Shown here in pieces: positions 11,827 through 48,271 of a DNA stretch of 64,000 bases (position 1 is its first letter; every line of letters begins with the position of its first letter). A program made the translations under genes and the position numbers. The DNA comes from Chloroflexota bacterium. Lineage in GTDB: Bacteria; Chloroflexota; UBA6077; FW602-bin22. Location of the stretch: assembly GCA_004297775.1 (NCBI GenBank), contig SCUE01000028.1, positions 64,704-128,703 on the forward strand, written 5' to 3'. The notes beneath the pieces were generated by a model. The model was not told the DNA's origin. It made no database searches and saw only the letters and a program-made list of their open reading frames with translations.

Positions 11827-11833
11827 GAGTGAA

Positions 11834-13030: not shown

Positions 13031-13077
13031 GACGTGCGCTCCTTTGCGAAATGTGACCGAATATGACCGGCGGAAAC

Positions 13078-35377: not shown

Positions 35378-35395
35378 CGATCCTCCCCGAGTGGC

Positions 35396-36568: not shown

Positions 36569-36633
36569 CTCAGAGGATAGAGTACCGGCCTCCGAAGCCG
36601 GGTGCGCAGGTTCGAGTCCTGCCGGGCGTACCA
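36559..36633 (+). tRNA. tRNA-Arg (anticodon CCG), CCA encoded
   Basis: Cloverleaf folded by hand: acceptor GCGCCCG/CGGGCGT, anticodon stem CCGGC/GCCGG with loop CTCCGAA, T-arm GCAGG-TTCGAGT-CCTGC. Confidence 0.9.
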
Positions 36634-38400: not shown

Positions 38401-38832
38401 TTAGTCCGTCACATGCCAGTTCGCCGGCAGATCATCGATCGGCGCCCATTCTGGGTGTGGCATCCAGTTCTCCCATCCGTCGCAGTATGGGGACATCCGT
38501 CGTTCGATCCGGTCGATCGCGCGATCGGCCTCGGACAGGATGGCCGCTGCTTCGCTCTCCGTGATGCTCCCGACTTTCCGCATCCAGCCGAACTCGTCCT
38601 GGTCCTTGAATCTCCACGAACTCAGGTCCGGCTTCACTACGAGATCCAGCGCGTGGTCCCACGTGTCAAACCCGGCGGGTGATCTCCGCCATGGAGCCTC
38701 AAGATTCACGTACCAGAAGAGGAACACACCATCGGCTTCACGCCAGAACAGACCCGTGGAATGGGCATCGCCCGGCCGATGGAGGAACAGCGCTCGATTC
38801 GTATGCCATACGTGTTGATTTCGCGGGAAAAC
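38401..38832 (-). pseudogene. DUF402-family (FomD-like nucleoside di/triphosphatase) gene fragment lacking its N-terminus, abutting the IS end
   Basis: FLFWYVNLEAPW...WDHALDLVVKPDLSSWRFKDQDEF matches the DUF402 core. The frame stays open upstream (…NQHVWHTNRALFLHRPGDAHSTGLFWREADGV) until a TAA that lies inside the IS inverted repeat. Confidence 0.55.
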
Positions 38833-38858
38833 TGGCTCTCCCGCATGTTATGGGAAGT
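38833..38858. repeat. IS terminal inverted repeat (left)
   Basis: TGGCTCTCCCGCATGTTATGGGAAGT, the exact reverse complement of 40516-40541. Confidence 0.9.
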
Positions 38859-38894
38859 CATAGCGTCCGCCGGTGATGCGGCCGACGAGCCGGA

Positions 38895-40469
38895 TCAGGC
38901 GGCGAGGACGCGAGCGCGGAGAAGCGCGATCGCCGCTCGGCCATACCCCTGGCGCTTGATGAGCTTCACTTTGTGGATGTAGCCCTCGACGGGACCATTG
39001 GACCACGGCAGTGTCAGCGCCGCGTCAACGGCGGCTCGATCGGCCGCGATCCCGTTGTCGAGCGCGACGAACGAAGGTAGACCGCTCTGCCGTGCGCATG
39101 CGATCCACGGGTCGAGGTCTGCCACATCGCGGCGACGCAAGACGGCCCGGAAGGTCGTGAGCAAGTCGTACCCGATCGCCAGATCGCGATGGGTATCGAG
39201 AATGACGGCAAGCGCAATCGTCTCATCGGAGCCGAGTAACTCGGGTGGGCGCAGACAGAGCCAGCGCGCTGACAAGCGGCGCATCGTACCGCACGCGCGG
39301 GGCGGTGCCCGTGGTGGTCGCCACGGTCGGAGCGCTTGGCGGAGCAATGACGCACTGCCGCCGTACTCCTGGGCGAGAATCTCGCGATAGAGTTGACTCA
39401 TGTTGTGGCATCCGGCTTGCCACCGATCGCGCAGGTACGCCGCGAAGGGATGGAGCGTCGGTGATGCCAACGGCGGCGGGCGAGGGGCCACGATCTGATT
39501 GCGCGGCGGCAATGGGGAGGCAAGGAGACCGCGCACCGTGCGTCGCTCGATGCCAACCACGGCCGCGATGCGCCGGATGCTCAGACCGTCGGCTCGAAGC
39601 GCGTGGGTTCGCTCCCATCTCTCGATGCGTGCCGCGCGTCGATCGGCGTCTCGCTGTGCGGTGGCGCTCCGTGGACGCGCCGCCGGCGTCACTCCCGCGC
39701 GCGACGCGCATGCCCGCGTCACGTCGAGAAGGCGGCGTCGACCACGGATCAGCTCGTCGAACGCGGCGCTGGCGTTCCGGGCGAGATGAAAACGATCCGC
39801 GACCTGGACGGCGTTCGGCGCGCCGAGCCGGGCTCCCTCGGCATAGGCCGTCGAACGATCACGAACGATGACCTCGACTCCGGGATGATCGCGCAGCCCG
39901 GTCGCAAGCACGTCCGCGTCACGTCCGGCCAGAAGGTCAACTGGGCGATGTGTCTCCCGGTCCATGAGCAAGGTCGCATAGCGGTTCCCGCGCCGAAGAG
40001 CCAGATCATCGACACCGAGAACACGCGGTGTCTCGTCGGACAGGGCCACTGATCGTTGCCGGCGCAGAAGGGTGTCGGCACTGATCTGAATGCCGACGGT
40101 GATCGCAAAGCGCGCGCCGGCTTCAGCGCCGATCAGTCGGACGACGGCGAGCAGGAACGCGGTGACGTCCTCCGTCCGCTGCCCGCGTGGACGCAGACCA
40201 GACCCGAGATCCTCGGCGAACGTCGCGCGCGGGCAGCTCGCTTCGCCGCAGCGAAAACGGCGCACTTGGATCGCCAGCGAGACCGACCGGCCACGCCACG
40301 GCAGGTCGGCCGGACGTCGCACGTATCGATCGTGAACGCGCTGGCTCGGTATCCCGCAGGTTGGACATCGCACTGTTCTCGATACACTGACGGCGTCCAG
40401 CCGAATACCATCACCCTCGACCACGATCCGCTGGATGACCAGCCGCGATCCGATACCCGCGATATCCAT
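38895..40469 (-). CDS. ISL3-family transposase
   Basis: N-terminal zf-ISL3 (VRCPTCGIPSQRVHDRYVRRPADLPWRGRSV...RRFRCGEASCPRATFAE). C-terminal SNGPVEGYIHKVKLIKRQGYGRAAIALLRARVL. Confidence 0.9.
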   Translation of the reverse strand: MDIAGIGSRLVIQRIVVEGDGIRLDAVSVSRTVRCPTCGIPSQRVHDRYVRRPADLPWRGRSVSLAIQVRRFRCGEASCPRATFAEDLGSGLRPRGQRTEDVTAFLLAVVRLIGAEAGARFAITVGIQISADTLLRRQRSVALSDETPRVLGVDDLALRRGNRYATLLMDRETHRPVDLLAGRDADVLATGLRDHPGVEVIVRDRSTAYAEGARLGAPNAVQVADRFHLARNASAAFDELIRGRRRLLDVTRACASRAGVTPAARPRSATAQRDADRRAARIERWERTHALRADGLSIRRIAAVVGIERRTVRGLLASPLPPRNQIVAPRPPPLASPTLHPFAAYLRDRWQAGCHNMSQLYREILAQEYGGSASLLRQALRPWRPPRAPPRACGTMRRLSARWLCLRPPELLGSDETIALAVILDTHRDLAIGYDLLTTFRAVLRRRDVADLDPWIACARQSGLPSFVALDNGIAADRAAVDAALTLPWSNGPVEGYIHKVKLIKRQGYGRAAIALLRARVLAA

Positions 40470-40515
40470 CGGACACCCCCATCACGTGTCCGACCGTACG
40501 CCGACTGCCGGCTTA

Positions 40516-40541
40516 ACTTCCCATAACATGCGGGAGAGCCA
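40516..40541. repeat. IS terminal inverted repeat (right)
   Basis: ACTTCCCATAACATGCGGGAGAGCCA, the reverse complement of 38833-38858. Confidence 0.9.
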
Positions 40542-40575
40542 ACTTTCAGACGAAATCGACAACCATGGCGTGACG

Positions 40576-40875
40576 ATGGCCTGTGGCGTCTGCGGACGGC
40601 CGTTCGTGCTGGCGGGGCGGCGCCGCTTCTCCTCGGATGCCTGCCGCCAAACGGCCTGGCGCCGACGCCATCCACCGGCGCTGGCGCCGATGCCGACCCG
40701 ATCGTCGCGACCGACGACGGTCTACGTGTGCCCATCCTGCGACGCACGCTACCTGGGCGAGCAGCGCTGCCCCGATTGCCAGCTCTTCTGTCGCCGCGTC
40801 GGCCCCGGCGGACTCTGCCCCCGCTGCGACGAGCCGTCGCCGTCGCCGATCTCCATCGCCGACGACAGGAGGTGA
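40576..40875 (+). CDS. small Cys-rich (multi zinc-ribbon) protein
   Basis: MACGVCGRPF...SSDACRQTAWRRRH...YVCPSCDARYLGEQRCPDCQLFCRRVGPGGLCPRCDE. Repeated CxxC pairs. ATG 40576 lies inside a longer track ORF. Confidence 0.45.
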   Translation: MACGVCGRPFVLAGRRRFSSDACRQTAWRRRHPPALAPMPTRSSRPTTVYVCPSCDARYLGEQRCPDCQLFCRRVGPGGLCPRCDEPSPSPISIADDRR

Positions 40876-40911
40876 CCCCACCGCAAACCCGCTATGCTCC
40901 ACCCGCGCGAT

Positions 40912-40955
40912 GGTCAACTATTCCGTGATCGCCCCGGTCAACTTTTGCGTGATCG
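40912..40955. repeat. tandem 20-bp direct repeat (18/20 identical, 24-bp period)
   Basis: GGTCAACTATTCCGTGATCG (40912-40931) and GGTCAACTTTTGCGTGATCG (40936-40955). Confidence 0.8.
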
Positions 40956-41180
40956 AACACAGATCCGGCCCATCAGGTTCCCGAGCCCTTCTATCATGAG
41001 ATTTAGACCGCTCGTCCATAAGGCCTGTACGTCGGGACGAGCCCGCAGGTGCAAAGAGGTCGTCTGTGCCTCGCCGGAGGGTATCGAGCGCTGCTGCGGA
41101 CCGGACGGATTCTCCTGCCTCCTGCCACGCGCAAGCGCGAGGCCGATCAGCAAACCGACGCCTATCCAGAGCACTCGCAT
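40938..41180 (-). CDS. possible 80-aa membrane-anchored protein downstream of the JAB-E1 gene
   Basis: MRVLWIGVGLLIGLALARGRRQ... gives one N-terminal TM helix. Third-position GC drops in the 3' half, so coding status is doubtful. Confidence 0.2.
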   Translation of the reverse strand: MRVLWIGVGLLIGLALARGRRQENPSGPQQRSIPSGEAQTTSLHLRARPDVQALWTSGLNLMIEGLGNLMGRICVRSRKS

Positions 41181-41325
41181 CCGCCCGATATGAAACCGAA
41201 TCGTTCCTGCGGTTGCAAGCCTTATGTCTAGAGAGGCGTGGCGGGTTCTCCCGCCGCCCGACCTCGGCCGCCATTTCTGCGGCGAACATGGCCCGCGCCT
41301 AATCGGACGCCAGCCGAGCCCAAAA

Positions 41326-42681
41326 CTACAGAAAACAGAGCGCCGCGGTGTCGCCCAGGCCGAGCACTTGGCGGCAGCGGCACGTTTCCTTCGGCTCGGT
41401 CGGCTTCGTCTCCGCGGCGTCGCCGAAGAAGCCGTCGAACCAGTAGCCGGAAGGGGCGTCCTCACCGTCCTCGGCGAGGAGTGTCAGGAGCGCGCACGTC
41501 GTCATGCCGCTGCCTAGAACGGTGAGGGCTATGGCGCTGGGCGCGGGCTCGCGGACGCCGTCCACCGTGTAACCCTCGCGCCGGCGCCGCTCGAACTCGG
41601 CGGCAGGGAGGTTCTCGTCGCGGATCACGTCGCTGTTGACCACCCCGCGGCACCAGAAGCATGGCGTGGTCGGCGTCAAGACGCGCACCTCCGTGACCAG
41701 GCCGTTCAGCAGGTTCCCGGCGCGGGATCCCGCGCGGACGCCCGCGTCGACCACCGGCAGGAAATAGGCGCTCATCAGGTCGTTAAGCGATGCGCGGCTC
41801 CCGTGCGTGTCGGTCCCGTTCAGCACCACGTCCGCGTCGAGGAGCTTGCGGGCAACGGCCTCGCATCGGACGTCCGCGGCCACGCGCTCGATTCGCGGAC
41901 CGAGCTCCATCTGATCGAGGTGGTCGGCGACGACGTCAACCTTGCGCGGCGCCGGCGAAACCTCGAGGTGGCGGGCGGTCGAACCGAAAACGCGCCGCGC
42001 GTTCGAGGGCGTGTCCAGCACATCGGGATCGACGAGCTTGTTCCCTGCCACACCCATGCGTTGCACCTGTTCTGCGTTGGTCGAGCCCAGGCCGCCTGAG
42101 CCGACGACTGCGACGTGCAGGTGGCGAAGCCGGTCGTGAACAACCCCCAGCGCGTCGCGCTGCCGAGCGTCGAGAGGTGAGTCGGTGACCTGGGGCAGTG
42201 GGCTCAGGAAGCGGAGGGTCCGCCCGATGCTCTGGACGCGATCGACGTGGCGGTACCCGCCGGCCGTCCAGACCGCCGCAGACCAACCCGAGGGGTGGAC
42301 TACCGCGACCGCGAACGGGCCGTCGATGATCGGTGAGACCGTGCGACCGAGCGCGGCGAACGCTACCTCGTCGACAGGGCTAAGGCCGGGCGGGTGAAGC
42401 GCGTTCGGGTGGGAGTGGACGAAGAGCAGCCCCGCCTTGGCGGTCACCGCCCGGCTGACGGCCTCGGAGACCCACCGCGCCGACGGCCGGAGAGTGTCGG
42501 GACCTTGCGCCTCCCAAGCGTCCGGTGGCGTGGCGAGCACCGCGGGCACGATCAGCCGCGTCCCTCGCTCGCCGCGGCCCTCGCGCAGGACGCAGAACGC
42601 CCCTTCCTCGTTCGGCGCGCTGCGCGCGAGTTGGCTCTCAAGGGCGCGCGCGACACGGTCCAGCAGGACGAGCCGGATCAT
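41326..42681 (-). CDS. fusion protein: N-terminal JAB/MPN (JAMM) metalloisopeptidase + C-terminal ThiF/E1-like adenylyltransferase
   Basis: JAMM-type motif EEGAFCV...FVHSHPNALHPPGLSPVDE (E...HxH...SxxD). E1 nucleotide loop HVAVVGSGGLGS and KLVDPDVLDTPSNARR. Cys pairs TPCFWCRG and ETCRCR. ATG overlaps the upstream stop (ATGA, 42678-42681). Confidence 0.85.
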   Translation of the reverse strand: MIRLVLLDRVARALESQLARSAPNEEGAFCVLREGRGERGTRLIVPAVLATPPDAWEAQGPDTLRPSARWVSEAVSRAVTAKAGLLFVHSHPNALHPPGLSPVDEVAFAALGRTVSPIIDGPFAVAVVHPSGWSAAVWTAGGYRHVDRVQSIGRTLRFLSPLPQVTDSPLDARQRDALGVVHDRLRHLHVAVVGSGGLGSTNAEQVQRMGVAGNKLVDPDVLDTPSNARRVFGSTARHLEVSPAPRKVDVVADHLDQMELGPRIERVAADVRCEAVARKLLDADVVLNGTDTHGSRASLNDLMSAYFLPVVDAGVRAGSRAGNLLNGLVTEVRVLTPTTPCFWCRGVVNSDVIRDENLPAAEFERRRREGYTVDGVREPAPSAIALTVLGSGMTTCALLTLLAEDGEDAPSGYWFDGFFGDAAETKPTEPKETCRCRQVLGLGDTAALCFL

Positions 42682-43067
42682 CGGACGTCCGCCAGCCGCG
42701 CCTCGAAGAACGCGAAGTGGTCGAGGAGCGGGTTACCGTCGACGCGCCATACGCCATTGCGGTGCCAGCTAAACCGACGCCAGGCCCGGCCCAGGTATTG
42801 CTCGATCGAATCCGCGTTCTGCGGGACCGAGCCATCCGGCTGGACGACTTCCCGCTCGACCCAGAACATGTCCATCGACGACAGCGGATACTGCTTGTCG
42901 CCGATGAACAGCACGTCGCTCGCAGCGACCGCGAAGCGCCCCTGCGGGAGAGAGACCTTCGACAGGAGGACGAACAGCCGGTCGCCCTCCTCAAGAACCT
43001 CGGCATCGGCGCTTAACGCGGCCGCGAGTTCGGCGGCGTGGAGCCGGAGCACGTCAATGGCGGCCAC
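42678..43067 (-). CDS. E2/UBC-like protein (prokaryotic E2 family-E-like) containing no cysteine
   Basis: 129 aa. GDKQYPLSSMDMFWV and WRRFSWHRNGVWRVDGNPLLDHFAFFEARL resemble the flap and active-site region of prokaryotic E2-like proteins that accompany multiubiquitin/E1/JAB genes. Lies between the Ubl and JAB-E1 genes with a 3-nt gap and a 4-nt overlap. Confidence 0.6.
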   Translation of the reverse strand: MAAIDVLRLHAAELAAALSADAEVLEEGDRLFVLLSKVSLPQGRFAVAASDVLFIGDKQYPLSSMDMFWVEREVVQPDGSVPQNADSIEQYLGRAWRRFSWHRNGVWRVDGNPLLDHFAFFEARLADVR

Positions 43068-43070
43068 CGG

Positions 43071-43331
43071 TTAGGCCCCGAACGTGCGGTCGCCGGGAAT
43101 CACGCGGTAGTGGTCGCCATTCTTCAGCTGGAGCGCCAGGTCCCACATGATCAGCTGGCCGCCCGTGGGGTCGCCCTCACCTTGGAGCTTCAGGAGGTCC
43201 CACTTCTTGCCCTCGAAGCCGGCGCGCTCGAGGAGGTCAGCCCCGGTGAGTTCGATGACGTCGAGATTGAGCCTGCGCCTATTGACGAAGACGTGAACAG
43301 CCGTGCCTGTTCGCCCAGTTGCCGTGCTCAT
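43071..43331 (-). CDS. single-domain ubiquitin-like beta-grasp protein (Multiubiquitin-family-like)
   Basis: 86 aa from ATG 43331, preceded by AAGGGAGAT. AVHVFVNRRRLNLDVIELTGADLLERAGFEGKKWDLLKLQ...LALQLKNGDHYRVIPGDRTFGA. The longer track ORF (to 43502) adds an Arg/Ser/Ala-rich, non-coding-looking extension. Confidence 0.65.
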   Translation of the reverse strand: MSTATGRTGTAVHVFVNRRRLNLDVIELTGADLLERAGFEGKKWDLLKLQGEGDPTGGQLIMWDLALQLKNGDHYRVIPGDRTFGA

Positions 43332-43505
43332 CGCTCCGATCTCCCTTGTTGCGAAACTCGGGAGTGCAGACCGTGCTGACGAGCAGCTCGGCTCGCTACT
43401 CCCTACCACGAGGAAAACCGGCGATCGGGCGGGCGCTTCCAAGCCAGGCCTGCTTCGTCGGCTATGGCGGCCCAAGTCCGCGGCTCGCGCGGCCGCGGTC
43501 ATCGC

Positions 43506-44513
43506 CTAGCGACGGCAGGTACCGCAGAGGCCGTCCTTCCACGTCCGCAAGGGCACGAGGAGGTTGCACTTGGAACAGCGCGCCTGCGCTCGTCTGCGCA
43601 GCTCGCAGTCGCACTTGCCGCAGTACCGGCATGGGGACTGCCCGCAGTCGGAGCAGGGAAAGGACGTCGACTCGCCCTCCCGGCCGCACGTGCGGCAGCG
43701 GACGAACGTCGAGAAGCTGACCCGCCGTCGCTCCGTGGGTACGGTCACGTGCAGATTCTCGATGCCCCACAGGTCGGCCTCGGCGAGGATCGCGAAGCCG
43801 TAGCGAGCGTCGGCGCACGCGTCCAACCAGTACTCATGCTGCTCGCCGTCCCCGAACGGCCACCACGAACGCGTCCTGAGCCGGCCGTTCGGCCGGAGCC
43901 GAAGCAACGCGTGACCAGGCGGGATAGGGTCAGCGCGCCAGGGCGCGGGGCGAGTGTCGGCCCGGCGCGCCGCGAAGGTCACCTGCCTTTGCCTGAGATG
44001 TACGACGGCAGCAAAGCCCAGGCAGCCGAGCTGCTCGGCGATAGCGATGGCGCAGACCTCCCGTGAGGCCACCGACCGGTTGAAGAGGTCGAGGATGTGG
44101 GCTGCCGAGGGCCGTTCTCCCCGCATCACCGCCGCCATCTTCGACGCGGGGAGGAGCAGCGCGGCTGCGACTCGGTCGCACACTTCCTCCACCGCGCGCT
44201 CTGGATCACGGCGATCCGCTGCCCAGTTCCAAACCCGGTCGTCCTCCTCGGCGAGGAAGTGTCCGAGTTCACGCAGGAGGGTGAAGTTCTCCCGATTGGA
44301 GCCGGGGGTAGCGGCAAACAGTATTCGTTTGTCGCGTAGGAATGACATCCCGTCGCACGCACCGCCGTGGCCGCGCGTGGGCGGTGCGGATACCTCTTGG
44401 AGCGTCAAGCCGAAGCGGCTCCTGAGCGCGCCGCGGGGATCGTCCGCGAGCAGAGCCCGCTGTTGAGGCTCGAGCGGCGCGATCAGTTGTTCCGCGAGCG
44501 CGCTGGCGGTCAA
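43506..44513 (-). CDS. ImmA/IrrE (DUF955, M78)-like protein with RELGH in place of HExxH, plus C-terminal 12-Cys multi-zinc-ribbon tail
   Basis: NFTLLRELGHFLAEED aligns by eye with the F-T-L-x-H-E-x-G-H peptidase motif. Tail CRTC..CSDC..CRYC..CDC..CSKC..CGTC. TTG start overlaps the upstream TGA (TTGA). Confidence 0.65.
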   Translation of the reverse strand: MTASALAEQLIAPLEPQQRALLADDPRGALRSRFGLTLQEVSAPPTRGHGGACDGMSFLRDKRILFAATPGSNRENFTLLRELGHFLAEEDDRVWNWAADRRDPERAVEEVCDRVAAALLLPASKMAAVMRGERPSAAHILDLFNRSVASREVCAIAIAEQLGCLGFAAVVHLRQRQVTFAARRADTRPAPWRADPIPPGHALLRLRPNGRLRTRSWWPFGDGEQHEYWLDACADARYGFAILAEADLWGIENLHVTVPTERRRVSFSTFVRCRTCGREGESTSFPCSDCGQSPCRYCGKCDCELRRRAQARCSKCNLLVPLRTWKDGLCGTCRR

Positions 44514-45850
44514 GGCGACCAGGACTCCATGTGCTCAAGCACCCATCCCTCCCACTCATCGTCTGTCATCTCGCCCCTGCTGCGCAGCGGTGCGGCCATC
44601 ATGGCGGCTGCCAGGCTATTTTGCAGTTGGCGCATCTGGTTTCCGGTCGACCGAGCGCGTTCTTCGATTCGCGCCATGATGCGCGGCCGGCGCAAGAGCG
44701 CCATGAAGCGTTCCTGCCGCCCGATCTGGGTGCCGCTGCGGATGTCCTCCACGCCCACGGCTAGGGTCCTGGCGATCGCCTCAGCGACACTGCGCTCGAG
44801 CTGGGCGGCGGAGTCCCGCTCGAGATCAAACACTTGCTTCGCGTTAAAGGGGTAGCCAGTCTTAGTCAAGAGCGCCGCGACTTCACCGACCTGCAGGTGC
44901 CGTCGTTGGCGCGCACGCCGAAGGGCCGTTCCACTAACCAGCACGAAACGCTCGCCGTCGGATGAACCTGCCTCGATGGCAGCCGCTTCGTCGCCGGGAG
45001 GCGCCGTGTCGGCGAACTCCCTCCGAGCCGACCTCGCCTCCGGCGCAGCTTCGGCCTGCCTACCTTGAGTCGCCGGCCCGCCTAATGCTAGGCGCAGCAG
45101 CGGCTGACGCAGGTACCCGCACGCATCGCTGTCACGCTCCTGAAACTCCAAACGCGGATCGTCTCGTCCCACCATCGCAGGCCCGACCCGACCTACCAAC
45201 CCCGTCAGGTCGACTTGAGCACCCACGTGCGCTTCGTACGCCAGCGTCAACGCCGGCTTCAGGGACTCGGCGAGCGCGCCGACCTTGCGGTTGAGCTGGG
45301 TGCTCAGCATCGGGACCTCGTTCCAAACCTCGACCATAAAGGGGAATGGAAGGGAGCTCTCAAACTCTCCCACCAACAGGTCTAGGTCCGAGCAGTAGTC
45401 GGTCTCCGTCGAGACGGGGGCGACATTGATCGCTCGGCCGAACGACCCATAGGACTTCCCTTCGGCCACGAGCACGACCACCAGGCGTGGCACAAGATCC
45501 GGATCGTCGACCTGGCCCCCGGACCGCTCAGAGACGCGGGTGGACCACACGTCGGCGAAGCAGGCAACTGACGGTTGGGGCGAAGACAGGGCCTCCCGAA
45601 AGCGGGCCGCCCGAATTCCGGACACTCGCCGGATATCGTCCGGCACTTCCGGCCGCTGCGTTCCTAAGTACGGCGCCGGCTGATGAGTTCCTTCGCTCAT
45701 ACGTCGCAACGCATCTGCACAGACCGGGCAGGTGGCTATGTGATTCTCGGCTGCGGCGGAACCCAGAGAGTCGATCCGTCCCTCGAGGTATTCGAGCAGA
45801 TCGAGAGTGGGTGGGCAGGTCGGATAGGTGCCCTCGCGTTCCGTCATCAT
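44510..45850 (-). CDS. fusion of an N-terminal zf-HC2 anti-sigma-factor motif, an uncharacterised central region and a C-terminal XRE-type HTH
   Basis: CPPTLDLLEYLEGRIDSLGSAAAENHIATCPVCADAL (H-x3-C-x2-C). C-terminal LRRARQRRHLQVGEVAALLTKTGYPFNAKQVFDLERD. No obvious TM helix. Confidence 0.65.
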   Translation of the reverse strand: MMTEREGTYPTCPPTLDLLEYLEGRIDSLGSAAAENHIATCPVCADALRRMSEGTHQPAPYLGTQRPEVPDDIRRVSGIRAARFREALSSPQPSVACFADVWSTRVSERSGGQVDDPDLVPRLVVVLVAEGKSYGSFGRAINVAPVSTETDYCSDLDLLVGEFESSLPFPFMVEVWNEVPMLSTQLNRKVGALAESLKPALTLAYEAHVGAQVDLTGLVGRVGPAMVGRDDPRLEFQERDSDACGYLRQPLLRLALGGPATQGRQAEAAPEARSARREFADTAPPGDEAAAIEAGSSDGERFVLVSGTALRRARQRRHLQVGEVAALLTKTGYPFNAKQVFDLERDSAAQLERSVAEAIARTLAVGVEDIRSGTQIGRQERFMALLRRPRIMARIEERARSTGNQMRQLQNSLAAAMMAAPLRSRGEMTDDEWEGWVLEHMESWSP

Positions 45851-45925
45851 CGTCCTCCGTATATGGCTAGACCGTCAAACACGTGCTCAATCTCAGGTTT
45901 CCAAGCGGGCAGGGGCCCTACCGCT

Positions 45926-46915
45926 TCACCCATCGCTGAGCAAGTCCAGCACACGCGCGAAGGTGTCCTCAGCGTCGTCCGGGCCCTCGGACTCAGAGGC
46001 GATGAGCTGCAAAGCCCGACGCACCTCGTTTTCAACGGTACTCTTGGAGCAGTCCAGCCGCTCCGCCACGGTCGTGTACGTGGCGCCGGGTCGGGCGTAC
46101 TCCAAGAGGGCCCGCTGCTGCCGGGGCGTCAGGTTTCGCACGATTGCGCTCGCACTTTCGTTTGTCACGACGCCCGCCTCCGGGGTCCGACCACCCGGCA
46201 GGGTCTCGGCGACGGTCGGTGCGTACCCATCCTGTTCTGGCCCGGTCGGCTCATCAAGTCCAACCATCGTTGCGTCGAACAGGTCGAAGCGCCACCGGAA
46301 CACGACGGCCATTTGCCCGAGGCTAAGCAGGCCGCCGACCTCGCGGAATAGGGCGTCAATGAACTCCGACAGCTCGCGATCGAGGACCACGGGCGACAGC
46401 TTCCGGGCATCGTCGCGGTACCTGATCGCGGTGAACCCGGCCGGCCGCAGCCCAGCCGCCACCAGCTCGGTCTCCGGGCCTTGAAACGGCCGGGGATCCT
46501 TCCACTCCGTCAGGCCCCAGAGCCGCGTGGCCTTGCTGCCGGCCGCGAACACCCTGAAGTGTGCCTCGGACTCGAGGCGGGTGTTCGCGCGGTTGAACAG
46601 ATTGTCCAGAGCCGTCCGCTTCTTTCGGCCGACCAGAAAGTCGGTGAACGACAACTCGAGGCCGCGCCGCAAGCCGCGCCGGCTGGTGTTCGCGACCAGC
46701 AGTTGTTCAAGTTGGCCATACCGGAGAAGCTTGTCGGTCGTCCAATCGTGCGCTAGCGCCGAAAGCGCGTCGGCATCCCAACGTCCCGTTGGCGAGTAAC
46801 TCGGAGGGTAGCGCCGCCCCATCACGACCGCCCTCACAGTACTCACGATCTCACCGTAGAGCCTTGAGCCGACGCCGGCGTGGGCGTACTCGGCGACGAG
46901 CTCGTCAAGCAACAC
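45926..46915 (-). CDS. protein with C-terminal sigma-70 region-4 / LuxR-type HTH and an unassigned 240-aa N-terminal region
   Basis: LTPRQQRALLEYARPGATYTTVAERLDCSKSTVENEVRRALQLI. GTG start shares one base with the upstream TAG (TAGTG). Confidence 0.6.
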   Translation of the reverse strand: MLLDELVAEYAHAGVGSRLYGEIVSTVRAVVMGRRYPPSYSPTGRWDADALSALAHDWTTDKLLRYGQLEQLLVANTSRRGLRRGLELSFTDFLVGRKKRTALDNLFNRANTRLESEAHFRVFAAGSKATRLWGLTEWKDPRPFQGPETELVAAGLRPAGFTAIRYRDDARKLSPVVLDRELSEFIDALFREVGGLLSLGQMAVVFRWRFDLFDATMVGLDEPTGPEQDGYAPTVAETLPGGRTPEAGVVTNESASAIVRNLTPRQQRALLEYARPGATYTTVAERLDCSKSTVENEVRRALQLIASESEGPDDAEDTFARVLDLLSDG

Positions 46916-47403
46916 TACCGGCCCTGCATCGAGCGTCGCGCACGCGCCACGACCTCTTGGTGAGCGCGGAGCAGATCGCTACGCCAAGACTCTGGTAGAC
47001 AGCCAACGTACCTGTATCCCTGCTGCACGAACCGGCTGGCGAAGAGGCGACGGCGGTTACCGAGGAGCACACTGCCGTCCCGATCCAGCTCCGGCAGGAC
47101 ACCGGCTGGAATGAAGAACTCGTTTGCCGGGTCCTCGCCGATCCGGCTTGAGGTGCGCGGAGCGGCCAGGACGCTGCCTCGGGCCGGATCGTAATTCTCG
47201 AGCAGCACCCACGGGTGAGCCGCGTCATGGCCGAATGCCGCCTCTGTATCAGGAACCCAGAACACGGCGCCCGGCACGAAGTGGGGGATAACGAAGCGAT
47301 TGACGTGCTCTGCCGGCGTGAGGGATGCGAACGCCTCAGCGAAACTCTTAAAGCCGCGACGAGGTTCACGGCCCGACTCCTTTCGAGGGTCGGATTCACC
47401 CAA
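46915..47403 (-). CDS. PemK/MazF-like (SH3-fold toxin-like) protein
   Basis: PGAVFWVPD...HPWVLLENYD...VLAAPRTSS...FIPAGVLPELDRDGSVLLGNRRRL follows the spacing of MazF/PemK motifs (G-x-V-W-V, RP-x-V-V-L, P-x-T-S, S-V-x-L). Start codon uncertain (TTG at 47403). Confidence 0.45.
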   Translation of the reverse strand: MGESDPRKESGREPRRGFKSFAEAFASLTPAEHVNRFVIPHFVPGAVFWVPDTEAAFGHDAAHPWVLLENYDPARGSVLAAPRTSSRIGEDPANEFFIPAGVLPELDRDGSVLLGNRRRLFASRFVQQGYRYVGCLPESWRSDLLRAHQEVVARARRSMQGR

Positions 47404-47530
47404 GCAGATCCTCTCACACGCGCCTCAGGCCGGAGTCCAGGTCGCCGGGCCGACTCTCGTCGGATCTCGACGGGTCAGCCGTAACAGCAAAACCGAGGAT
47501 CGCGGGCGATTTCCAACCCGCGGGGCGATT

Positions 47531-47797
47531 CTAGCGGTTGTTCACTCGCCGCCTCCCAGACGCCTTCGTGGTGCTCGGATCGGCGACCACGATGCCTGGA
47601 GCGCCCCCCGCCGCAGTCCGGACGGGACGCGCTGCTTGGGCTCCTGGCGGGTGAGTCGATCGAGCGGATCGATCAGGCGCCCCGCCCGCGGCGTACTGCG
47701 CCTCGTCGGCAGTCCGGATGTCGCCGAGCTCATGGACCGTGTAGCCGCGCGCGGGCTCCGATTCACCTTCGCCAAGGACGGCGGTCACGCGAAACAT
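47531..47797 (-). CDS. possible small hypothetical protein upstream of the locus
   Basis: MFRVTAVLGEGESEPARGYTVHELGDIRTADEAQYAAG... Only the first ~40 codons have high third-position GC. No family recognised. Confidence 0.2.
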   Translation of the reverse strand: MFRVTAVLGEGESEPARGYTVHELGDIRTADEAQYAAGGAPDRSARSTHPPGAQAARPVRTAAGGAPGIVVADPSTTKASGRRRVNNR

Positions 47798-47988
47798 GGT
47801 GAAGGGACTACTTTCTCGTGACAAGCGGCAAGCCGACAGTCGTCCCGAGTTCTTCGTGGTACTGAGCCCTTAGGCAACCAACGGCTGCTCTGCTGGGCCA
47901 CGCCCTCCTTCGTGGGTCCGTTCCTGTCTGCAGACCGAACGGGAGGCAGGCTCTCGAACCTGGGTGTCGTCCCAGGCCCACGCACGCG

Positions 47989-48008
47989 TTGTCCCAACAT
48001 TGTCCCAA
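47989..48008. repeat. direct repeat TTGTCCCAA x2 with 11-bp period
   Basis: TTGTCCCAA at 47989-47997 and 48000-48008, about 60 nt from the 3' end of tRNA-Arg(GCG). Confidence 0.7.
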
Positions 48009-48068
48009 GACGCCTGGAATCCCGCCTCCGGACCGAGTCCGTGGCGGGATTCTGAGTTCAAAATCGGG

Positions 48069-48142
48069 TACGCCCGGCAGGACTCGAACCTGCGGCCTTT
48101 GGGTCCGCAACCCAACGCTCTAATCCACTGAGCTACGGGCGC
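48069..48142 (-). tRNA. tRNA-Arg (anticodon GCG), CCA not encoded
   Basis: Reverse complement GCGCCCGTAGCTCAGTGGATTAGAGCGTTGGGTTGCGGACCCAAAGGCCGCAGGTTCGAGTCCTGCCGGGCGTA. Anticodon loop TTGCGGA. Same acceptor stem and T-arm as the tRNA at 36559. Confidence 0.9.
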
Positions 48143-48271
48143 ATGGCGTCGCTCGTCGAGCAACTGCGCCTAGCGATTATATGACCTCGTCAGCGTGTCA
48201 GCAAAAGGCGCCGCGCCGAACTGGAAACTCGCTGGCGGCGCCGCGATCCGCGTGCGTGGTAGCCTCGACTG

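What the first reader, a model, noticed from the sequence alone, without database searches (positions are those of the whole stretch)
41326..47403. Seven-gene co-directional locus coupling a Ubl / E2-like / JAB-E1 module to a sigma-like, anti-sigma/XRE, ImmA-like and PemK-like front end: candidate undescribed regulated ubiquitin-like conjugation (defence) system
Seen in sequence:
- Seven minus-strand genes with almost no intergenic space. In transcription order: PemK-like (46915-47403), sigma70-r4-like (45926-46915), zf-HC2/XRE fusion (44510-45850), ImmA-like plus 12-Cys tail (43506-44513), 86-aa beta-grasp Ubl (43071-43331), E2-like (42678-43067), JAB-E1 fusion (41326-42681).
- Junctions: TAGTG (46915), a 75-nt gap, TTGA (44510-44513), a 174-nt gap, a 3-nt gap, ATGA (42678-42681).
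- The locus sits in an accessory segment between two tRNA-Arg genes, next to an ISL3 element and higBA.

Established knowledge:
- Operons of multiubiquitin-type Ubl, prokaryotic E2, E1 and JAB were predicted by comparative genomics.
- Related modules (Bil, Bub, and Cap2/Cap3 of type II CBASS) act in anti-phage defence.

Inference:
- There is no CD-NTase, so this is not CBASS.
- JAB and E1 are fused and the E2-like protein lacks Cys, so it does not look like canonical BilABCD.
- The upstream four genes look like a sensor/regulator layer: sigma/anti-sigma, an XRE plus ImmA-like derepression pair, and a toxin-fold protein. None of the named systems I know includes such a layer.
- The whole may be a phage- or stress-triggered Ubl-conjugation system.
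Basis: partly seen in the sequence, partly recalled or inferred. Interest (0 to 1): 0.9.

Follow-up and report, generated by a model that had tools for sequence, protein, structure and literature searches.

The report
Sigma-switch-controlled bacterial ubiquitin-like conjugation locus
Seven real, co-directional genes join a known kind of bacterial ubiquitin-like tagging machine (a Bub-type Ubl/E2/JAB-E1 trio) to a recurring, apparently undescribed control cassette (sigma-like factor, MazF-like anti-sigma protein, sensor peptidase) that shares one promoter-like motif with the trio.

Summary
In detail: all seven minus-strand ORFs, their junctions, the Cys-free E2 and the 12-Cys tail are as described.

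**The back end is a known kind.** Ubl/E2/JAB-E1 is class "6e", now Type I Bub. The JAB-E1's best solved relative is Citrobacter BubCD, and all Bub catalytic residues are present. It is a variant: Ubl and E2 are separate genes and BubE/DUF6527 is absent. This also holds in about 20 related loci.

**The front end is not a chance neighbour.**
- g1 (MazF/PemK-like), g2 (sigma-like) and g3 (HxxxCxxC anti-sigma motif plus a MazF-like domain) form a cassette.
- The cassette recurs with interchangeable proteases: M78/CapP-like, Lon_C-RNase HII, or CHAT.
- It sits upstream of Bub I-like, Bub II, Bil and Lamassu-like modules.
- One metagenomic locus (L044) repeats the window's g2-to-E1 architecture.
- The motif TTGGAAA-N8/9-GATC-N4-GTTT occurs in the window only before g1, g3 and the Ubl gene, and at the same places in related loci.

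**Best reading (inferred).** This is a protease / anti-sigma / sigma switch, with the logic of CalpL-CalpT-CalpS and a CapP-like sensor, that drives a Bub-type operon.

**Caveats.** This copy's peptidase has RELGH in place of HEXXH. Nothing has been tested experimentally. Bub operons have no proven defence role.

The parts
47488..47516 (-). Promoter-like motif P1 (TTGGAAATCGCCCGCGATCCTCGGTTTTG), 84 nt upstream of the g1 start.
   Evidence: The exact pattern TGGAAN{9,10}GATCNNNNGTTT hits the 64-kb window only twice, with 0.00 expected. The same motif lies upstream of g1 homologues in L022, L023, L025, L031-L036, L040, L041, L043 and L045.
46915..47403 (-). g1: 162-aa MazF/PemK-fold protein (fold region about residues 40-150), translationally coupled to g2.
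   Evidence: 35-42% identical to the protein that precedes sigma-like genes in 8 or more loci (E 1e-24 to 1e-31). A profile of the family hits only MazF/PemK toxins in the PDB (8 of 8 hits, best E 0.016). Homologues give weak PemK_toxin hits. This copy has no Pfam hit.
45926..46915 (-). g2: 329-aa sigma-factor-like protein. Region-4 HTH at residues 258-303; the N-terminal ~190 aa have no sequence match to known sigma regions.
   Evidence: Sigma70_r4_2 6.6e-7. Profile search of the PDB hits only sigma4/LuxR-type HTHs, with SigF, SigB and FliA first. The AF2 model has pLDDT 84, and Foldseek's top hits are full-length SigB/SigH/SigD, but weakly (E 6e-3 to 4e-2, TM 0.17-0.27). The family has 304 clusters at E<=1e-10 among 1.84 billion representatives.
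45875..45904 (-). Promoter-like motif P2 (TTGGAAACCTGAGATTGAGCACGTGTTTGA) in the g2-g3 gap, 24 nt upstream of the g3 ATG.
   Evidence: Found by PWM scan, but this site was among the 14 used to build the matrix. Independent support: equivalent sites, not used in the matrix, at the g2/g3 junction of the other M78-type cassettes L040 (3151-3180) and L045 (1824-1853). It has GAGC in place of GATC.
44510..45850 (-). g3: 446-aa composite anti-sigma-like protein. C12...H37-x3-C41-x2-C44 zinc anti-sigma motif (45719-45817); MazF/PemK-like domain at about residues 94-207 (45230-45571); XRE-like HTH at about residues 307-370 (44741-44932); conserved acidic tail.
   Evidence: Residues 1-~270 are 33-41% identical to the protein that follows sigma-like genes in 15 or more loci (E to 1e-53). 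HxxxCxxC is kept in 13 of 20 members. zf-HC2 0.027 here and 0.0017 in L025. PemK_toxin 7e-4 and 0.0095 in the L005 and L014 copies. hhalign against the g1 family gives E 1.4e-4 at 52% probability. HTH_31 0.017 across the whole domain. Single-sequence AF2 failed (pLDDT 38).
43506..44513 (-). g4: 335-aa CapP/IrrE-like M78 peptidase (residues 56-142) with a 12-Cys zinc-ribbon-like tail (residues 273-333, 43515-43697). The first zinc ligand is Arg in this copy (RELGH, codon CGT at 44271-44273).
   Evidence: PADLOC capP 2.2e-14. Peptidase_M78 1.6e-6. Best solved relatives are IrrE orthologues (2.5e-5), aligning RELGH to HEISH. A full-length orthologue in L044 (49% identity, E 6e-111) has the same Cys tail and an intact HELGH.
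43413..43442 (-). Promoter-like motif P3 (TTGGAAGCGCCCGCCCGATCGCCGGTTTTC) in the 174-nt g4-Ubl gap, 81 nt upstream of the Ubl ATG.
   Evidence: This is the second of the two exact-pattern hits in the window. The same motif lies upstream of the Ubl gene in L022, L025, L031, L032, L034 and L044.
43071..43331 (-). Ubl (BubA-like): 86 aa, a single Multi_ubiq-type beta-grasp domain ending ...RTFG-A.
   Evidence: 45-66% identical to the first gene of the trio in 21 genomes. 18 of 21 orthologues hit Multi_ubiq (best 1.2e-7). Gly85 is invariant, followed by 0-8 variable residues. A GGAG site precedes the ATG.
42678..43067 (-). E2-like (BubB-like): 129 aa, no Cys, with D66, S100 and H102.
   Evidence: Prok-E2_E 2.9e-19. 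The only PDB matches are Citrobacter BubB chains, and they are weak (E 0.18). They align S100-x-H102 and D66 with the published catalytic S333, H335 and D299. RRFSWH and MDMFW are near-invariant in the clade.
41326..42681 (-). JAB-E1 fusion (BubCD-like): 451 aa. JAMM domain at about residues 1-165; ThiF-type adenylation domain at residues 183-435.
   Evidence: The best solved relative is Citrobacter BubCD (E 4e-18 over residues 3-391). ThiF 2.6e-21. E25, H89, H91, D104, R229/R230 and Y371 (Citrobacter Y370) are invariant in 22 homologues.

Best explanation
The locus is a Bub-type (class 6e) ubiquitin-like conjugation module placed under a dedicated protease / anti-sigma / sigma switch.

**Shown by sequence**
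- The last three genes encode a Multi_ubiq Ubl that ends in a conserved Gly plus one residue, a Cys-less E2 with the Bub Ser-His-Asp residues, and a JAMM-E1 fusion with the Bub crossover-loop Tyr.
- The first three genes are a conserved cassette: a MazF-like protein, a sigma-like protein, and a protein combining a zinc anti-sigma motif with a MazF-like domain.
- The cassette always sits beside a protease, and the C-terminal domain of g3 changes with the protease type.
- One asymmetric motif with -35/-10-like spacing precedes g1, g3 and the Ubl gene.

**Inferred mechanism**
1. In the resting state g3 sequesters g2.
2. The CapP/IrrE-like peptidase g4 is activated, by analogy by single-stranded DNA from DNA damage or infection.
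3. g4 recognises the CapH-like HTH tail of g3 and cleaves it. The remnant is degraded, as happens for CalpT.
4. Free g2 directs RNA polymerase to the three TTGGAAA...GTTT promoters. This raises its own operon and switches on Ubl-E2-JAB/E1.
5. The JAB domain trims the residue after Gly85.
6. The E1 adenylates the Ubl and passes it through Tyr371 and E2 Ser100 oxyesters onto targets that are still unknown.

The role of g1 is open. It may be a partner or decoy for the MazF-like domain of g3.

In this genome the switch may be disabled, because g4 has Arg at the first zinc ligand.
For: **Trio**
- BubCD is the best PDB match for the JAB-E1 fusion (4e-18).
- Prok-E2_E 2.9e-19.
- The catalytic residues are conserved.
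- The conserved RTFG with variable short tails looks like a Ubl precursor.
- The trio is conserved in all 21 genomic loci found.
- Published Bub biochemistry is in PMC11601596.

**Cassette**
- g1, g2 and g3 homologues are adjacent in more than 15 distinct loci.
- L044 repeats g2-g3-M78(Cys tail)-Ubl-E2-E1.
- M78-type cassettes (window, L040, L042, L044) carry an HTH-like g3 tail. Lon-type cassettes carry a different tail.
- The HxxxCxxC motif is present in 13 of 20 g3-family members.

**Motif**
- Two exact hits in 64 kb against 0.00 expected, both on the coding strand upstream of g1 and of the Ubl gene.
- In the first 45 fetched loci it occurs only in cassette loci, at the same relative places, and never in the 21 CapH/CapP-type loci.
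- It is conserved between GC-rich and AT-rich genomes.
- It is also present in Lon-type cassettes, whose g3 lacks the HTH, so it tracks g2 and not the HTH.
- No sigma-70 consensus promoter is found in 40400-48200.

**Precedent**
- CalpL cleaves the MazF-like anti-sigma CalpT to free the ECF-like sigma CalpS. TPR-CHAT/Csx30/CASP-sigma works in a similar way (10.1101/2024.05.08.593097).
Against: - No experiment supports any step.
- g2 matches known sigma factors by sequence only in region 4. No region 2 is detected, and the fold match is weak (TM 0.17-0.27).
- The anti-sigma, MazF-like and HTH calls for g3 each rest on sub-threshold scores. The g3 structure prediction failed.
- g3 homologues in L022, L023, L043 and L044 lack the zinc motif.
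- g4 of this copy has RELGH instead of HEXXH, so the proposed cleavage may not occur here.
- g1 is missing from L044, so it is not essential to the architecture.
- The cassette also occurs without any Ubl genes (L023, L127, L040, L126).
- BubE, present in all catalogued Bub operons, is absent.
- Bub operons have not been shown to protect against phage.
- The motif was recognised by eye, and the matrix was trained on 14 sites that include the three window sites. Its statistics are therefore partly post hoc.
Confidence: 0.6

Rival explanations
1. This is an ordinary CapH+CapP-regulated Bub operon. g3's HTH acts as a DNA-binding repressor that g4 cleaves. g2 and g1 are accessory or unrelated neighbours, and the shared motif is the repressor's operator.
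For: - g4 matches capP at 2.2e-14.
- HTH+M78 pairs flank the same trio in 11 or more of 21 related loci.
- 31% of catalogued Bub operons have CapH+CapP.
- Lau et al. 2022 noted 24 CBASS systems where capH/capP sit beside a sigma-70-family factor, with no role assigned to it.
Against: - The motif is asymmetric, not palindromic.
- It is equally conserved in Lon-type cassettes, whose g3 has no HTH.
- It is absent from all 21 classical HTH/M78-flanked loci.
- The HTH is at the C-terminus of a 446-aa protein whose first ~270 residues are conserved together with g2, not with M78.
- g1, g2 and g3 stay together while the protease changes.
Confidence: 0.15
2. The g1-g2-g3(+protease) cassette is a self-contained toxin-antitoxin-like or abortive-infection unit. 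g1 and/or g3 would be MazF-type RNases and g2 their transcriptional autoregulator. It merely co-localises with Ubl operons in defence islands without controlling them.
For: - g1 and the central domain of g3 are MazF/PemK-like.
- Cassettes exist without Ubl genes (L023/L024, L127).
- The loci lie among restriction-modification, DUF499/DUF1156, pPIWI and toxin-antitoxin genes.
- higBA is nearby in the window.
Against: - The same motif precedes both the cassette and the Ubl gene in the window and in 6 or more other loci, which argues for co-regulation.
- The cassette is joined to Ubl systems in three different arrangements and with three Ubl system types (Bub I-like, Bub II, Bil). This is more than island co-occurrence would predict.
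- The residue aligned with the conserved Arg of MazF6 is His in the g1 family (alignment). That this Arg matters for RNase activity is from memory and was not tested here.
Confidence: 0.12
3. The locus is a decaying, non-functional mosaic: a recombinant of an L025-type front end and an L001-type trio. It has lost BubE, has an inactivated peptidase, and carries a nearby ISL3 insertion.
For: - H81R in g4.
- No BubE.
- ISL3 lies about 750 nt downstream of the E1 gene.
- The front end is closest to L040/L022-type cassettes (50-55% identity for g2). The trio is closest to L001-type loci (52-61%) and only 26-29% identical to the trio that accompanies those cassettes.
Against: - All seven ORFs are intact, with tight or overlapping junctions and ribosome-binding sites.
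- All other catalytic residues are kept.
- All three motifs are intact.
- Absence of BubE is a property of the whole clade of more than 20 loci, not a local loss.
Confidence: 0.13

Closest known systems
Type I Bub operon (class 6e / 6E.1): BubAB, BubCD, BubE (Iyer et al. 2006, PMC1779556; Ye et al., PMC11601596)
   Same: - JAMM-E1 fusion, with Citrobacter BubCD as the best solved relative.
- JAMM residues E/HxH/D and the crossover-loop Tyr (Y371 here, Y370 in Citrobacter).
- A Cys-less Prok-E2_E E2 with Ser-x-His plus Asp.
- A Multi_ubiq Ubl with a conserved Gly at the processing or conjugation site.
- Location in a tRNA-flanked accessory segment.
- An M78 peptidase regulator next to it.
   Different: - Ubl and E2 are separate genes, as in 20 of 21 relatives. 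Only L021 has the fusion.
- The Ubl has one beta-grasp domain.
- No BubE/DUF6527 serine protease is present, in the window or near relatives.
- The published catalogue was seeded on DUF6527, so this clade would have been missed.
- The regulator here is a sigma-like/anti-sigma cassette, not a simple CapH repressor.
CalpL-CalpT-CalpS of type III CRISPR (SAVED-Lon protease, MazF-like anti-sigma, ECF-like sigma), and TPR-CHAT/Csx30/CASP-sigma
   Same: [quoted passage not shown]
- Sister cassettes use a Lon_C protease (L022, L025, L041, L127) or a CHAT protease (L043).
- The TPR-CSD partner matches PADLOC models of CRISPR-ancillary TPR and CSD proteins.
   Different: - No SAVED/CARF domain was found in g1-g4 by Pfam or PADLOC, and no CRISPR link was seen.
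- The protease in the window is an M78/CapP-like metallopeptidase.
- The anti-sigma protein carries an N-terminal HxxxCxxC motif and, in M78-type cassettes, a C-terminal HTH in place of DUF2080.
- The sigma-like protein is ~330 aa with no recognisable region 2.
- There is an extra MazF-like protein (g1).
- No sequence-level homology to CalpT or CalpS could be shown.
- The output operon is identifiable here (Ubl conjugation), which is not the case for CalpS.
CapH+CapP / DdrO+IrrE / ImmR+ImmA peptidase-repressor pairs
   Same: - g4 matches the capP model (2.2e-14) and IrrE structures.
- The substrate candidate carries an XRE-like HTH followed by a C-terminal tail, the layout that CapP recognises in CapH.
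- Such pairs are associated with Bub, Bil and CBASS operons.
   Different: - The HTH is the C-terminal module of a large anti-sigma-like protein and is only weakly detectable.
- The genes are co-directional with the regulated operon, not divergent from it.
- g4 has an extra 12-Cys tail and no cysteine-switch Cys between the HEXXH position and the third zinc ligand.
- HEXXH is RELGH in this copy.
- The proposed output is release of a sigma factor, not loss of a repressor.
DdvS/DdvA ECF sigma / transmembrane anti-sigma pair controlling a CBASS-CRISPR island in Myxococcus (PMC11506125)
   Same: A dedicated sigma/anti-sigma pair encoded beside defence genes and controlling their transcription.
   Different: DdvA is described as a transmembrane anti-sigma factor and DdvS as a canonical ECF sigma (title and abstract only; the paper was not read). 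Nothing in the g3 analyses suggested a membrane segment, but this was not specifically tested. No homology between the pairs was tested.

Membership tests
Type I Bub (6e/6E.1) | JAB/JAMM peptidase fused to an E1 adenylation domain (BubCD), with JAMM residues E, HxH, D. | tested here: met
   Best PDB hit is Citrobacter BubCD at 4e-18 over residues 3-391. E25, H89, H91 and D104 are invariant in 22 homologues. ThiF 2.6e-21.
Type I Bub (6e/6E.1) | E1 crossover loop with an invariant Tyr in place of the catalytic Cys. | tested here: met
   Y371 is invariant and aligns with BubCD Y370 in 'ReGYtvdGVrEpAPS'. The conserved C341/C344 and C434/C436 look like the structural zinc site of ThiF-type enzymes; this is an inference.
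Type I Bub (6e/6E.1) | E2 (BubB) without Cys, with invariant Ser + His + Asp. | tested here: met
   0 Cys. S100, H102 and D66 align with BubB S333, H335 and D299. Prok-E2_E 2.9e-19.
Type I Bub (6e/6E.1) | Multi_ubiq-type Ubl with a conserved Gly that is exposed by JAB cleavage. | tested here: met
   18 of 21 orthologues hit Multi_ubiq. Gly85 is invariant, followed by 0-8 residues; the window copy ends RTFG-A. Cleavage itself was not tested.
Type I Bub (6e/6E.1) | Ubl fused to E2 as one BubAB pre-protein. | tested here: not met
   A stop codon and a 3-nt gap separate the two genes. They are also separate in 20 of 21 related loci and fused only in L021.
Type I Bub (6e/6E.1) | BubE / DUF6527 serine protease encoded in the operon. 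| tested here: not met
   None of the seven proteins hits it. It is not among the top 25 of 63 Pfam families found in 116 neighbours of the trio across 26 loci, so at most one neighbour could carry it. The model does detect BubE in L042 and L128.
CapH+CapP regulator pair | CapP: M78 zinc peptidase with HEXXH plus a downstream Glu ligand. | tested here: not met
   Family membership is clear (capP 2.2e-14; IrrE 2.5e-5). The motif in this copy is RELGH (Arg81), though the Glu, the second His and the downstream EE are kept. The L044 orthologue has HELGH.
CapH+CapP regulator pair | CapH: a small XRE-HTH repressor with a C-terminal dimerisation helix, usually divergent from the regulated operon. | tested here: not met
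   The only HTH is a weak HTH_31 match (0.017) at residues 307-370 of the 446-aa g3. The genes are co-directional. Classical small HTH + M78 pairs do flank the trio in 11 or more related loci.
CapH+CapP regulator pair | Activation of the peptidase by single-stranded DNA. | not testable with these tools
   This needs biochemistry. The CapP HTH/GAF region is only partly covered by the HMM match (profile positions 42-202 of 242).
Protease / anti-sigma / sigma switches (CalpLTS-like) | A sigma factor with regions 2 and 4 that binds RNA polymerase. | tested here: inconclusive
   Region 4 is clear. No region-2 match by sequence. Foldseek's top hits are whole sigma factors, but at TM 0.17-0.27. A conserved motif with -35/-10-like spacing supports the role indirectly.
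Protease / anti-sigma / sigma switches (CalpLTS-like) | An anti-sigma protein with a MazF-like domain, encoded next to the sigma gene. | tested here: inconclusive
   PemK_toxin 7e-4 and 0.0095 in two homologues. hhalign to the g1 family gives E 1.4e-4 at 52% probability. The g1 family hits only MazF/PemK in the PDB. There is no direct hit to CalpT, and the structure prediction failed.
Protease / anti-sigma / sigma switches (CalpLTS-like) | A SAVED-Lon protease activated by cA4 from a type III CRISPR system. | tested here: not met
   The window's protease is M78. No SAVED, CARF or Lon domain is found in g1-g4. Sister cassettes have Lon_C fused to RNase HII, not to SAVED.
Zinc-binding anti-sigma factors (ZAS, zf-HC2) | An N-terminal H-x3-C-x2-C motif with an upstream Cys or His ligand, encoded directly after the sigma gene. 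| tested here: met
   C12...H37-x3-C41-x2-C44 in g3. The motif is kept in 13 of 20 family members. zf-HC2 0.027 here and 0.0017 in L025. The gene follows g2 after a 75-nt gap. Zinc binding was not tested.
BilABCD | [quoted passage not shown] | tested here: not met
   JAB is fused to a single ThiF domain and the E2 has no Cys. A genuine Bil operon follows a sister cassette in L041.
Type II CBASS (Cap2/Cap3) | A CD-NTase plus an E1-E2 fusion (Cap2) and a separate JAB (Cap3). | tested here: not met
   No CD-NTase among the seven proteins. Similarity to Cap2 models is limited to the E1 nucleotide-binding region. The rest of the window was not scanned for CD-NTases.

The most novel reading that the evidence does not exclude
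The g1-g2-g3 cassette plus its adjacent protease is a previously undescribed, portable and CRISPR-independent relative of the CalpLTS-type switch.
- Its parts are a dedicated sigma-like factor, a zinc-motif/MazF-like anti-sigma protein, and an interchangeable sensor protease: CapP-like M78, Lon_C-RNase HII with TPR-CSD, or CHAT.
- It uses its own promoter (TTGGAAA-N17-GTTT) to switch on whichever effector operon lies downstream: Bub I-like, Bub II, Bil or Lamassu-like.
- It would be the first such sigma switch whose regulon can be read directly from the sequence.
Probability: 0.5. Interest if true: 0.75.

Novelty: new variant of a known kind. Interest (0 to 1): 0.62.

Why it matters
**What is open.** The biological role and the trigger of Bub-type bacterial ubiquitin-like conjugation are still unknown, and the published operons gave no phage protection. 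For CalpS-type sigma factors released by immune proteases, the controlled genes were not identified in the sources read here.

**What this locus offers.**
- A compact, testable circuit that links a candidate DNA-damage- or infection-sensing peptidase, a sigma/anti-sigma pair, a defined promoter motif and a Ubl-conjugation output.
- A way to induce a Bub-like system on demand by expressing the sigma-like protein, which would make its targets findable.
- A BubE-less, unfused clade of Bub-like trios that sits outside the DUF6527-seeded catalogue.
- Evidence that immune regulators are built by swapping sensor proteases and matching substrate tails onto a constant sigma/anti-sigma core.

**If the sigma reading is wrong.** The locus is still a further member of the known Bub + CapP-like arrangement, and then of modest interest.

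Tried and rejected
- **g3+g4 word-index search.** A concatenated query returned only g3 itself.
- **Genome-contig scan with the g2 alignment.** It failed twice: no conserved stretch, then no confirmed hit.
- **g3 structure prediction.** Single-sequence AlphaFold gave pLDDT 38, which is unusable. Homologues from fetched loci could not be supplied to the predictor.
- **g3-family profile against the PDB.** Nothing found, so homology to CalpT is unproven.
- **Ubl profile against the PDB.** Nothing found.
- **g2 against PLSDB plasmids.** No match.
- **ISL3 interruption test.** I removed the element in silico to see whether it interrupts a BubE-like gene. The result was uninformative: the high G+C content gives long ORFs in every frame, and nothing resembling BubE appeared.
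- **Literature searches.** Three broad searches returned only eukaryotic ubiquitin papers.
- **tgt scan for the host.** Best hits were only 52-60% identical (Chloroflexota first), so the host is not identified.
- **Rejected: CBASS.** No CD-NTase among the seven proteins.
- **Rejected: Bil.** JAB is fused and the E2 has no Cys.
- **Rejected: Pup or sulfur-carrier ThiS/MoaD systems.** An E2 and a JAB domain are present, BubCD is the best hit, and the NCBIfam ThiF/MoeB matches fall far below their cut-offs.
- **Rejected: 'the E2 is inactive'.** That was the 2006 reading. Published biochemistry shows the Ser-His-Asp E2 is active.

Full report

Yes. The ORF list shows all seven minus-strand ORFs at exactly the stated coordinates. 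The junctions follow from them:
- g1/g2 share one base at 46915.
- A 75-nt gap separates g2 and g3.
- g3/g4 overlap by 4 nt.
- A 174-nt gap separates g4 and the Ubl gene.
- A 3-nt gap separates Ubl and E2.
- E2 and JAB-E1 overlap by 4 nt.

The short 86-aa Ubl start has a GGAG site 9 nt upstream, and g1's TTG has a GAGAGG site. The E2-like protein has no Cys. g4 has 12 Cys in residues 273-333.

The surroundings are as described. Two tRNA-Arg genes face each other with their 3' ends inward, bracketing 11.4 kb. An ISL3 element spans 38805-40569. HigB, a metallophosphoesterase and a DUF402 fragment are also present.

**2. The last three genes**

Direct family evidence:
- Pfam gives Prok-E2_E (2.9e-19) for the E2 and ThiF (2.6e-21) for the E1 domain.
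- The best solved relative of the 451-aa protein is Citrobacter BubCD (4e-18 over residues 3-391).
- The only solved match of the E2 is Citrobacter BubB, and it is weak (E 0.18).

The Bub paper (PMC11601596) defines Type I Bub, formerly '6E.1'. It consists of a Ubl-E2 fusion, a JAB-E1 fusion and the DUF6527 protease BubE. The E1 works through a crossover-loop Tyr (Y370). The Cys-less E2 works through Ser333/His335/Asp299. The JAB domain cuts after a conserved Gly.

All of these residues are present here:
- E25, H89, H91, D104, R229/230 and Y371 are invariant in 22 homologues of the JAB-E1.
- D66, S100 and H102 lie in the near-invariant motifs MDMFW and RRFSWH of the E2.
- Gly85 of the Ubl is invariant, in ...RTFG followed by 0-8 variable residues.
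- 18 of 21 Ubl orthologues hit Multi_ubiq.

Iyer et al. 2006 had already listed this gene set as class 6e. Those are the hallmarks of Bub.

Two defining features are not met.
- Ubl and E2 are separate genes. This holds here and in 20 of 21 related genomic loci; only L021 has the fusion.
- BubE is absent. It is missing from the window. It is not among the top 25 of 63 Pfam families found in 116 neighbours of the trio, so at most one neighbour could carry it. The same Pfam model finds BubE readily in L042 and L128.

Because the published catalogue was seeded on DUF6527, this unfused, BubE-less clade lies outside it. The clade occurs in Solirubrobacterales, Chloroflexota, Acidobacteriota, Planctomycetota and Gemmatimonadota.

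**3. What flanks the trio elsewhere**

In at least 11 of the 21 genomic loci the trio is flanked by a small XRE-HTH protein and an M78 peptidase, mostly divergently. This is the CapH+CapP arrangement already reported for 31% of Bub operons. Only L005, L010 and L014 carry relatives of g2 and g3, and there they are divergent from the trio. On that evidence alone the front end could have been a rare accident. I therefore searched outward from g2.

**4. The front end is a conserved cassette**

The g2 family is small but real. It has 304 clusters at E<=1e-10 among 1.84 billion representative proteins, nearly all ~320-340 aa and matched end to end.

Neighbourhoods of 15 family members show a constant core:
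- A g1 homologue. g1 is 35-42% identical to the copies aligned (E 1e-24 to 1e-31); the L043 copy is more distant (27%).
- The sigma-like g2.
- A g3 homologue. Residues 1-~270 are 33-41% identical, with E down to 1e-53.

Next to this core lies a protease of one of three kinds:

| Protease type | Loci |
|---|---|
| M78 | window, L040, L042, L044, L045, L128 |
| ~790-aa Lon_C-RNase HII fusion followed by a TPR-cold-shock-domain protein | L005, L014, L022, L023, L025, L031-35, L041, L127 |
| CHAT, upstream of the core | L043 |

L126 has no protease next to the core.

The C-terminal domain of g3 co-varies with the protease. M78-type cassettes have an XRE-like HTH plus an acidic tail (window HTH_31 0.017 over the full domain; L040, L042 and L044 by alignment). 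Lon-type cassettes have an unrelated ~130-aa domain.

Downstream of the cassette lie different modules:
- A Bub I-like trio: window, L044, L022, L025, L031, L032 and L034. The trio is divergent from the cassette in L005, L010 and L014.
- Type II Bub with BubE: L042 and L128.
- A Bil operon (BilA_UBL_2, BilB-like, Prok-JAB): L041.
- A Lamassu-like LmuB/metallophosphoesterase set: L040 and L045 (LmuB 4.7e-34).
- A GajB-like helicase plus an HNH nuclease: L126.
- Nothing recognisable: L023 and L127.

L044 repeats the window's architecture from g2 to the E1. Its M78 protein is 49% identical to g4 over the full length, including the Cys-rich tail (E 6e-111).

The trio usually occurs without these four genes, but the four-gene layer repeatedly occurs with Ubl systems.

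**5. What the cassette proteins are**

*g2.* It has a clear sigma region-4 HTH. The AF2 model (pLDDT 84) has whole SigB/SigH/SigD chains as its top Foldseek hits, but with poor superposition. No region 2 is seen by sequence.

*g3.* It starts with C12...H37-x3-C41-x2-C44, the zinc anti-sigma signature. The motif is kept in 13 of 20 family members, and the gene sits in the canonical position after the sigma gene. Its central domain and the whole of g1 are MazF/PemK-like. The evidence is:
- Weak PemK_toxin hits in several homologues.
- hhalign between the two families at E 1.4e-4, with 52% probability.
- The g1-family profile hits only MazF/PemK toxins in the PDB: 8 of 8 hits, best 0.016.

Each of these scores is marginal. 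Together they are consistent.

*g4.* It belongs to the CapP/IrrE family.

**6. A shared promoter-like motif**

I aligned the regions upstream of g1 homologues and of the Ubl genes. This revealed TTGGAAA-N8/9-GATC-N4-GTTT.

- The exact pattern TGGAAN{9,10}GATCNNNNGTTT occurs twice in the 64-kb window on both strands, against 0.00 expected.
- The two hits are at 47490-47515, 84 nt before g1, and 43415-43441, 81 nt before the Ubl ATG. Both are on the coding strand.
- A position-weight scan adds 45875-45904, 24 nt before g3.
- Among the 45 loci held at that point, exact hits occur only in cassette loci. They are always on the coding strand and always before the g1 homologue or before the Ubl gene.
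- The weight-matrix scan agrees, apart from sites before g3 (L040, L045) and two near-threshold hits inside genes (L033, L041). It finds none in the 21 loci L001-L021.

The motif is asymmetric, with a 17-nt spacing between TTGGAA and GTTT. It is conserved between a 66% G+C and a much more AT-rich genome. It is present where g3 lacks an HTH. These three features fit a promoter read by g2 better than an operator for a dimeric repressor. No sigma-70 consensus promoter is found in the region.

The motif was found by eye. The weight matrix was trained on 14 sites, including the three in the window. The independent support comes from the exact-pattern test and the non-training hits: L022 before Ubl, L040 and L045 before g3, and L030-L038.

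**7. Most likely mechanism**

The logic matches the CalpL-CalpT-CalpS effector of type III CRISPR systems. There a SAVED-Lon protease cleaves the MazF-like anti-sigma CalpT, its remnant is degraded, and the ECF-like sigma CalpS is freed. TPR-CHAT/Csx30/CASP-sigma is similar.

Here the sensor protease is CapP-like. [quoted passage not shown]

I therefore propose the following sequence:
1. g3 holds g2.
2. Activated g4 cleaves g3 through its CapH-like tail.
3. g2 then drives P1, P2 and P3, giving feedback on its own operon and induction of Ubl-E2-JAB/E1.
4. These proteins carry out Bub-type conjugation through Tyr and Ser oxyesters.

The gene content, homologies, motif positions and residue conservation are shown. 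Every functional step is inferred. g1's role is unknown, and it is absent from L044.

**8. Caveats specific to this copy**

g4 has Arg81 (CGT) where its orthologue and IrrE/CapP have the first His of HEXXH. A single base change would explain this, and the peptidase may be inactive.

The front end is closest to L040/L022-type cassettes. The trio is closest to L001-type loci and is only 26-29% identical to the trios that accompany those cassettes. The window locus therefore looks like a recombinant. All ORFs, ribosome-binding sites and motifs are nonetheless intact.

**9. Novelty**

The trio is a new variant of a known kind: an unfused, BubE-less Bub I. The CapP-like peptidase next to Bub is known.

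The sigma-like/anti-sigma/MazF-like cassette and its promoter motif were not found in PADLOC 2023. They were also not found in the literature held here:
- Lau et al. 2022 merely noted a sigma-70-family gene beside capH/capP in 24 CBASS systems.
- No paper mentions CalpT or CalpS together with CapP, Bub or Bil.

I could not run current DefenseFinder, and the literature search covers only open texts.

**10. Verdict**

The most defensible statement is that this is a Bub-type Ubl conjugation operon under a CalpLTS-like sigma switch with a CapP-like sensor.

| Measure | Value |
|---|---|
| Interest | 0.62 |
| Novelty | new variant of a known kind |
| Confidence in the overall mechanism | 0.6 |
| Confidence that the trio is Bub-type | about 0.9 |
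| Confidence that the cassette controls the trio | about 0.65 |

Noticed in passing
window 44271-44273 (g4 codon 81): The first zinc-binding His of the M78 HEXXH motif is Arg (CGT; RELGH). The full-length orthologue in L044 has HELGH. A single base change would account for it, so this copy's peptidase may be inactive.
   Followed up: partly
L025 14435-16476; L044 4676-6784; also L022, L031, L032, L034: A second, divergent clade of Ubl/E2/JAB-E1 trios. Its Ubl ends ...PDDVSEA or ...PDDNS with no C-terminal Gly, and its E2 has S-R-R instead of S-W-H. The JAMM residues and the crossover-loop Tyr are kept. How such a Ubl would be activated is unclear.
   Followed up: partly
L040 1670-12061 and L045 343-9843: The same g1-g2-g3-M78 cassette sits upstream of a Lamassu-like set: two unknown proteins, a metallophosphoesterase and an LmuB-like SMC ATPase. 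L040 abuts a tgt gene, as the window's accessory segment does (tgt at 35285-36568).
   Followed up: partly
L005 8960-9400 and L014 5340-5620: In the two acidobacterial loci the cassette and trio are divergent. The shared intergenic region holds two inverted copies of GAAC(C/A)GCGATTC. This is a different candidate promoter or operator for that distant branch of the sigma-like family.
   Followed up: no
L003, L012, L019 (about 11450-13040); L006, L011, L015 (about 7700-9260): Other regulator-like neighbours of the same trio. One set has a 156-aa protein plus a Ser/Thr protein kinase downstream. The other has a 260-aa protein plus a STAS-like/MarR-type protein upstream, possibly related to CapK/CapS.
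   Followed up: no
L043 2079-8342: A 1111-aa CHAT protease lies directly upstream of g1-g2-g3 homologues. This recalls the TPR-CHAT/Csx30/CASP-sigma arrangement of type III-E CRISPR systems. The contig ends before any effector.
   Followed up: no
window 36559-36633 (+) and 48066-48143 (-): tRNA-Arg(ccg) and tRNA-Arg(gcg) are near-perfect inverted copies outside the anticodon region (31 nt at 97% and 28 nt at 93%). Their 3' ends point inward across the 11.4-kb accessory segment. No direct-repeat attachment site was found.
   Followed up: partly
window 38401-40875: An ISL3 element (38805-40569) has 69-nt imperfect inverted repeats. It sits between a 5'-truncated DUF402 gene fragment (38401-38727) and a 146-aa Cys-rich zinc-ribbon ORF (40435-40875, + strand) that overlaps the element's right end. 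What the insertion interrupted could not be resolved.
   Followed up: partly
L025 10271-13975 and equivalents in L022, L023, L041, L127, L005, L014: A conserved pair: a ~790-aa Lon_C + RNase HII fusion and a ~437-aa TPR + cold-shock-domain protein. The TPR-CSD protein matches PADLOC TPR/CSD_V models (7.4e-22 and 9.6e-14). The Lon part weakly matches SAVED-Lon, CRISPR-Lon and BrxL models. In L023 and L127 this five-gene set stands alone and may be a system in its own right.
   Followed up: partly
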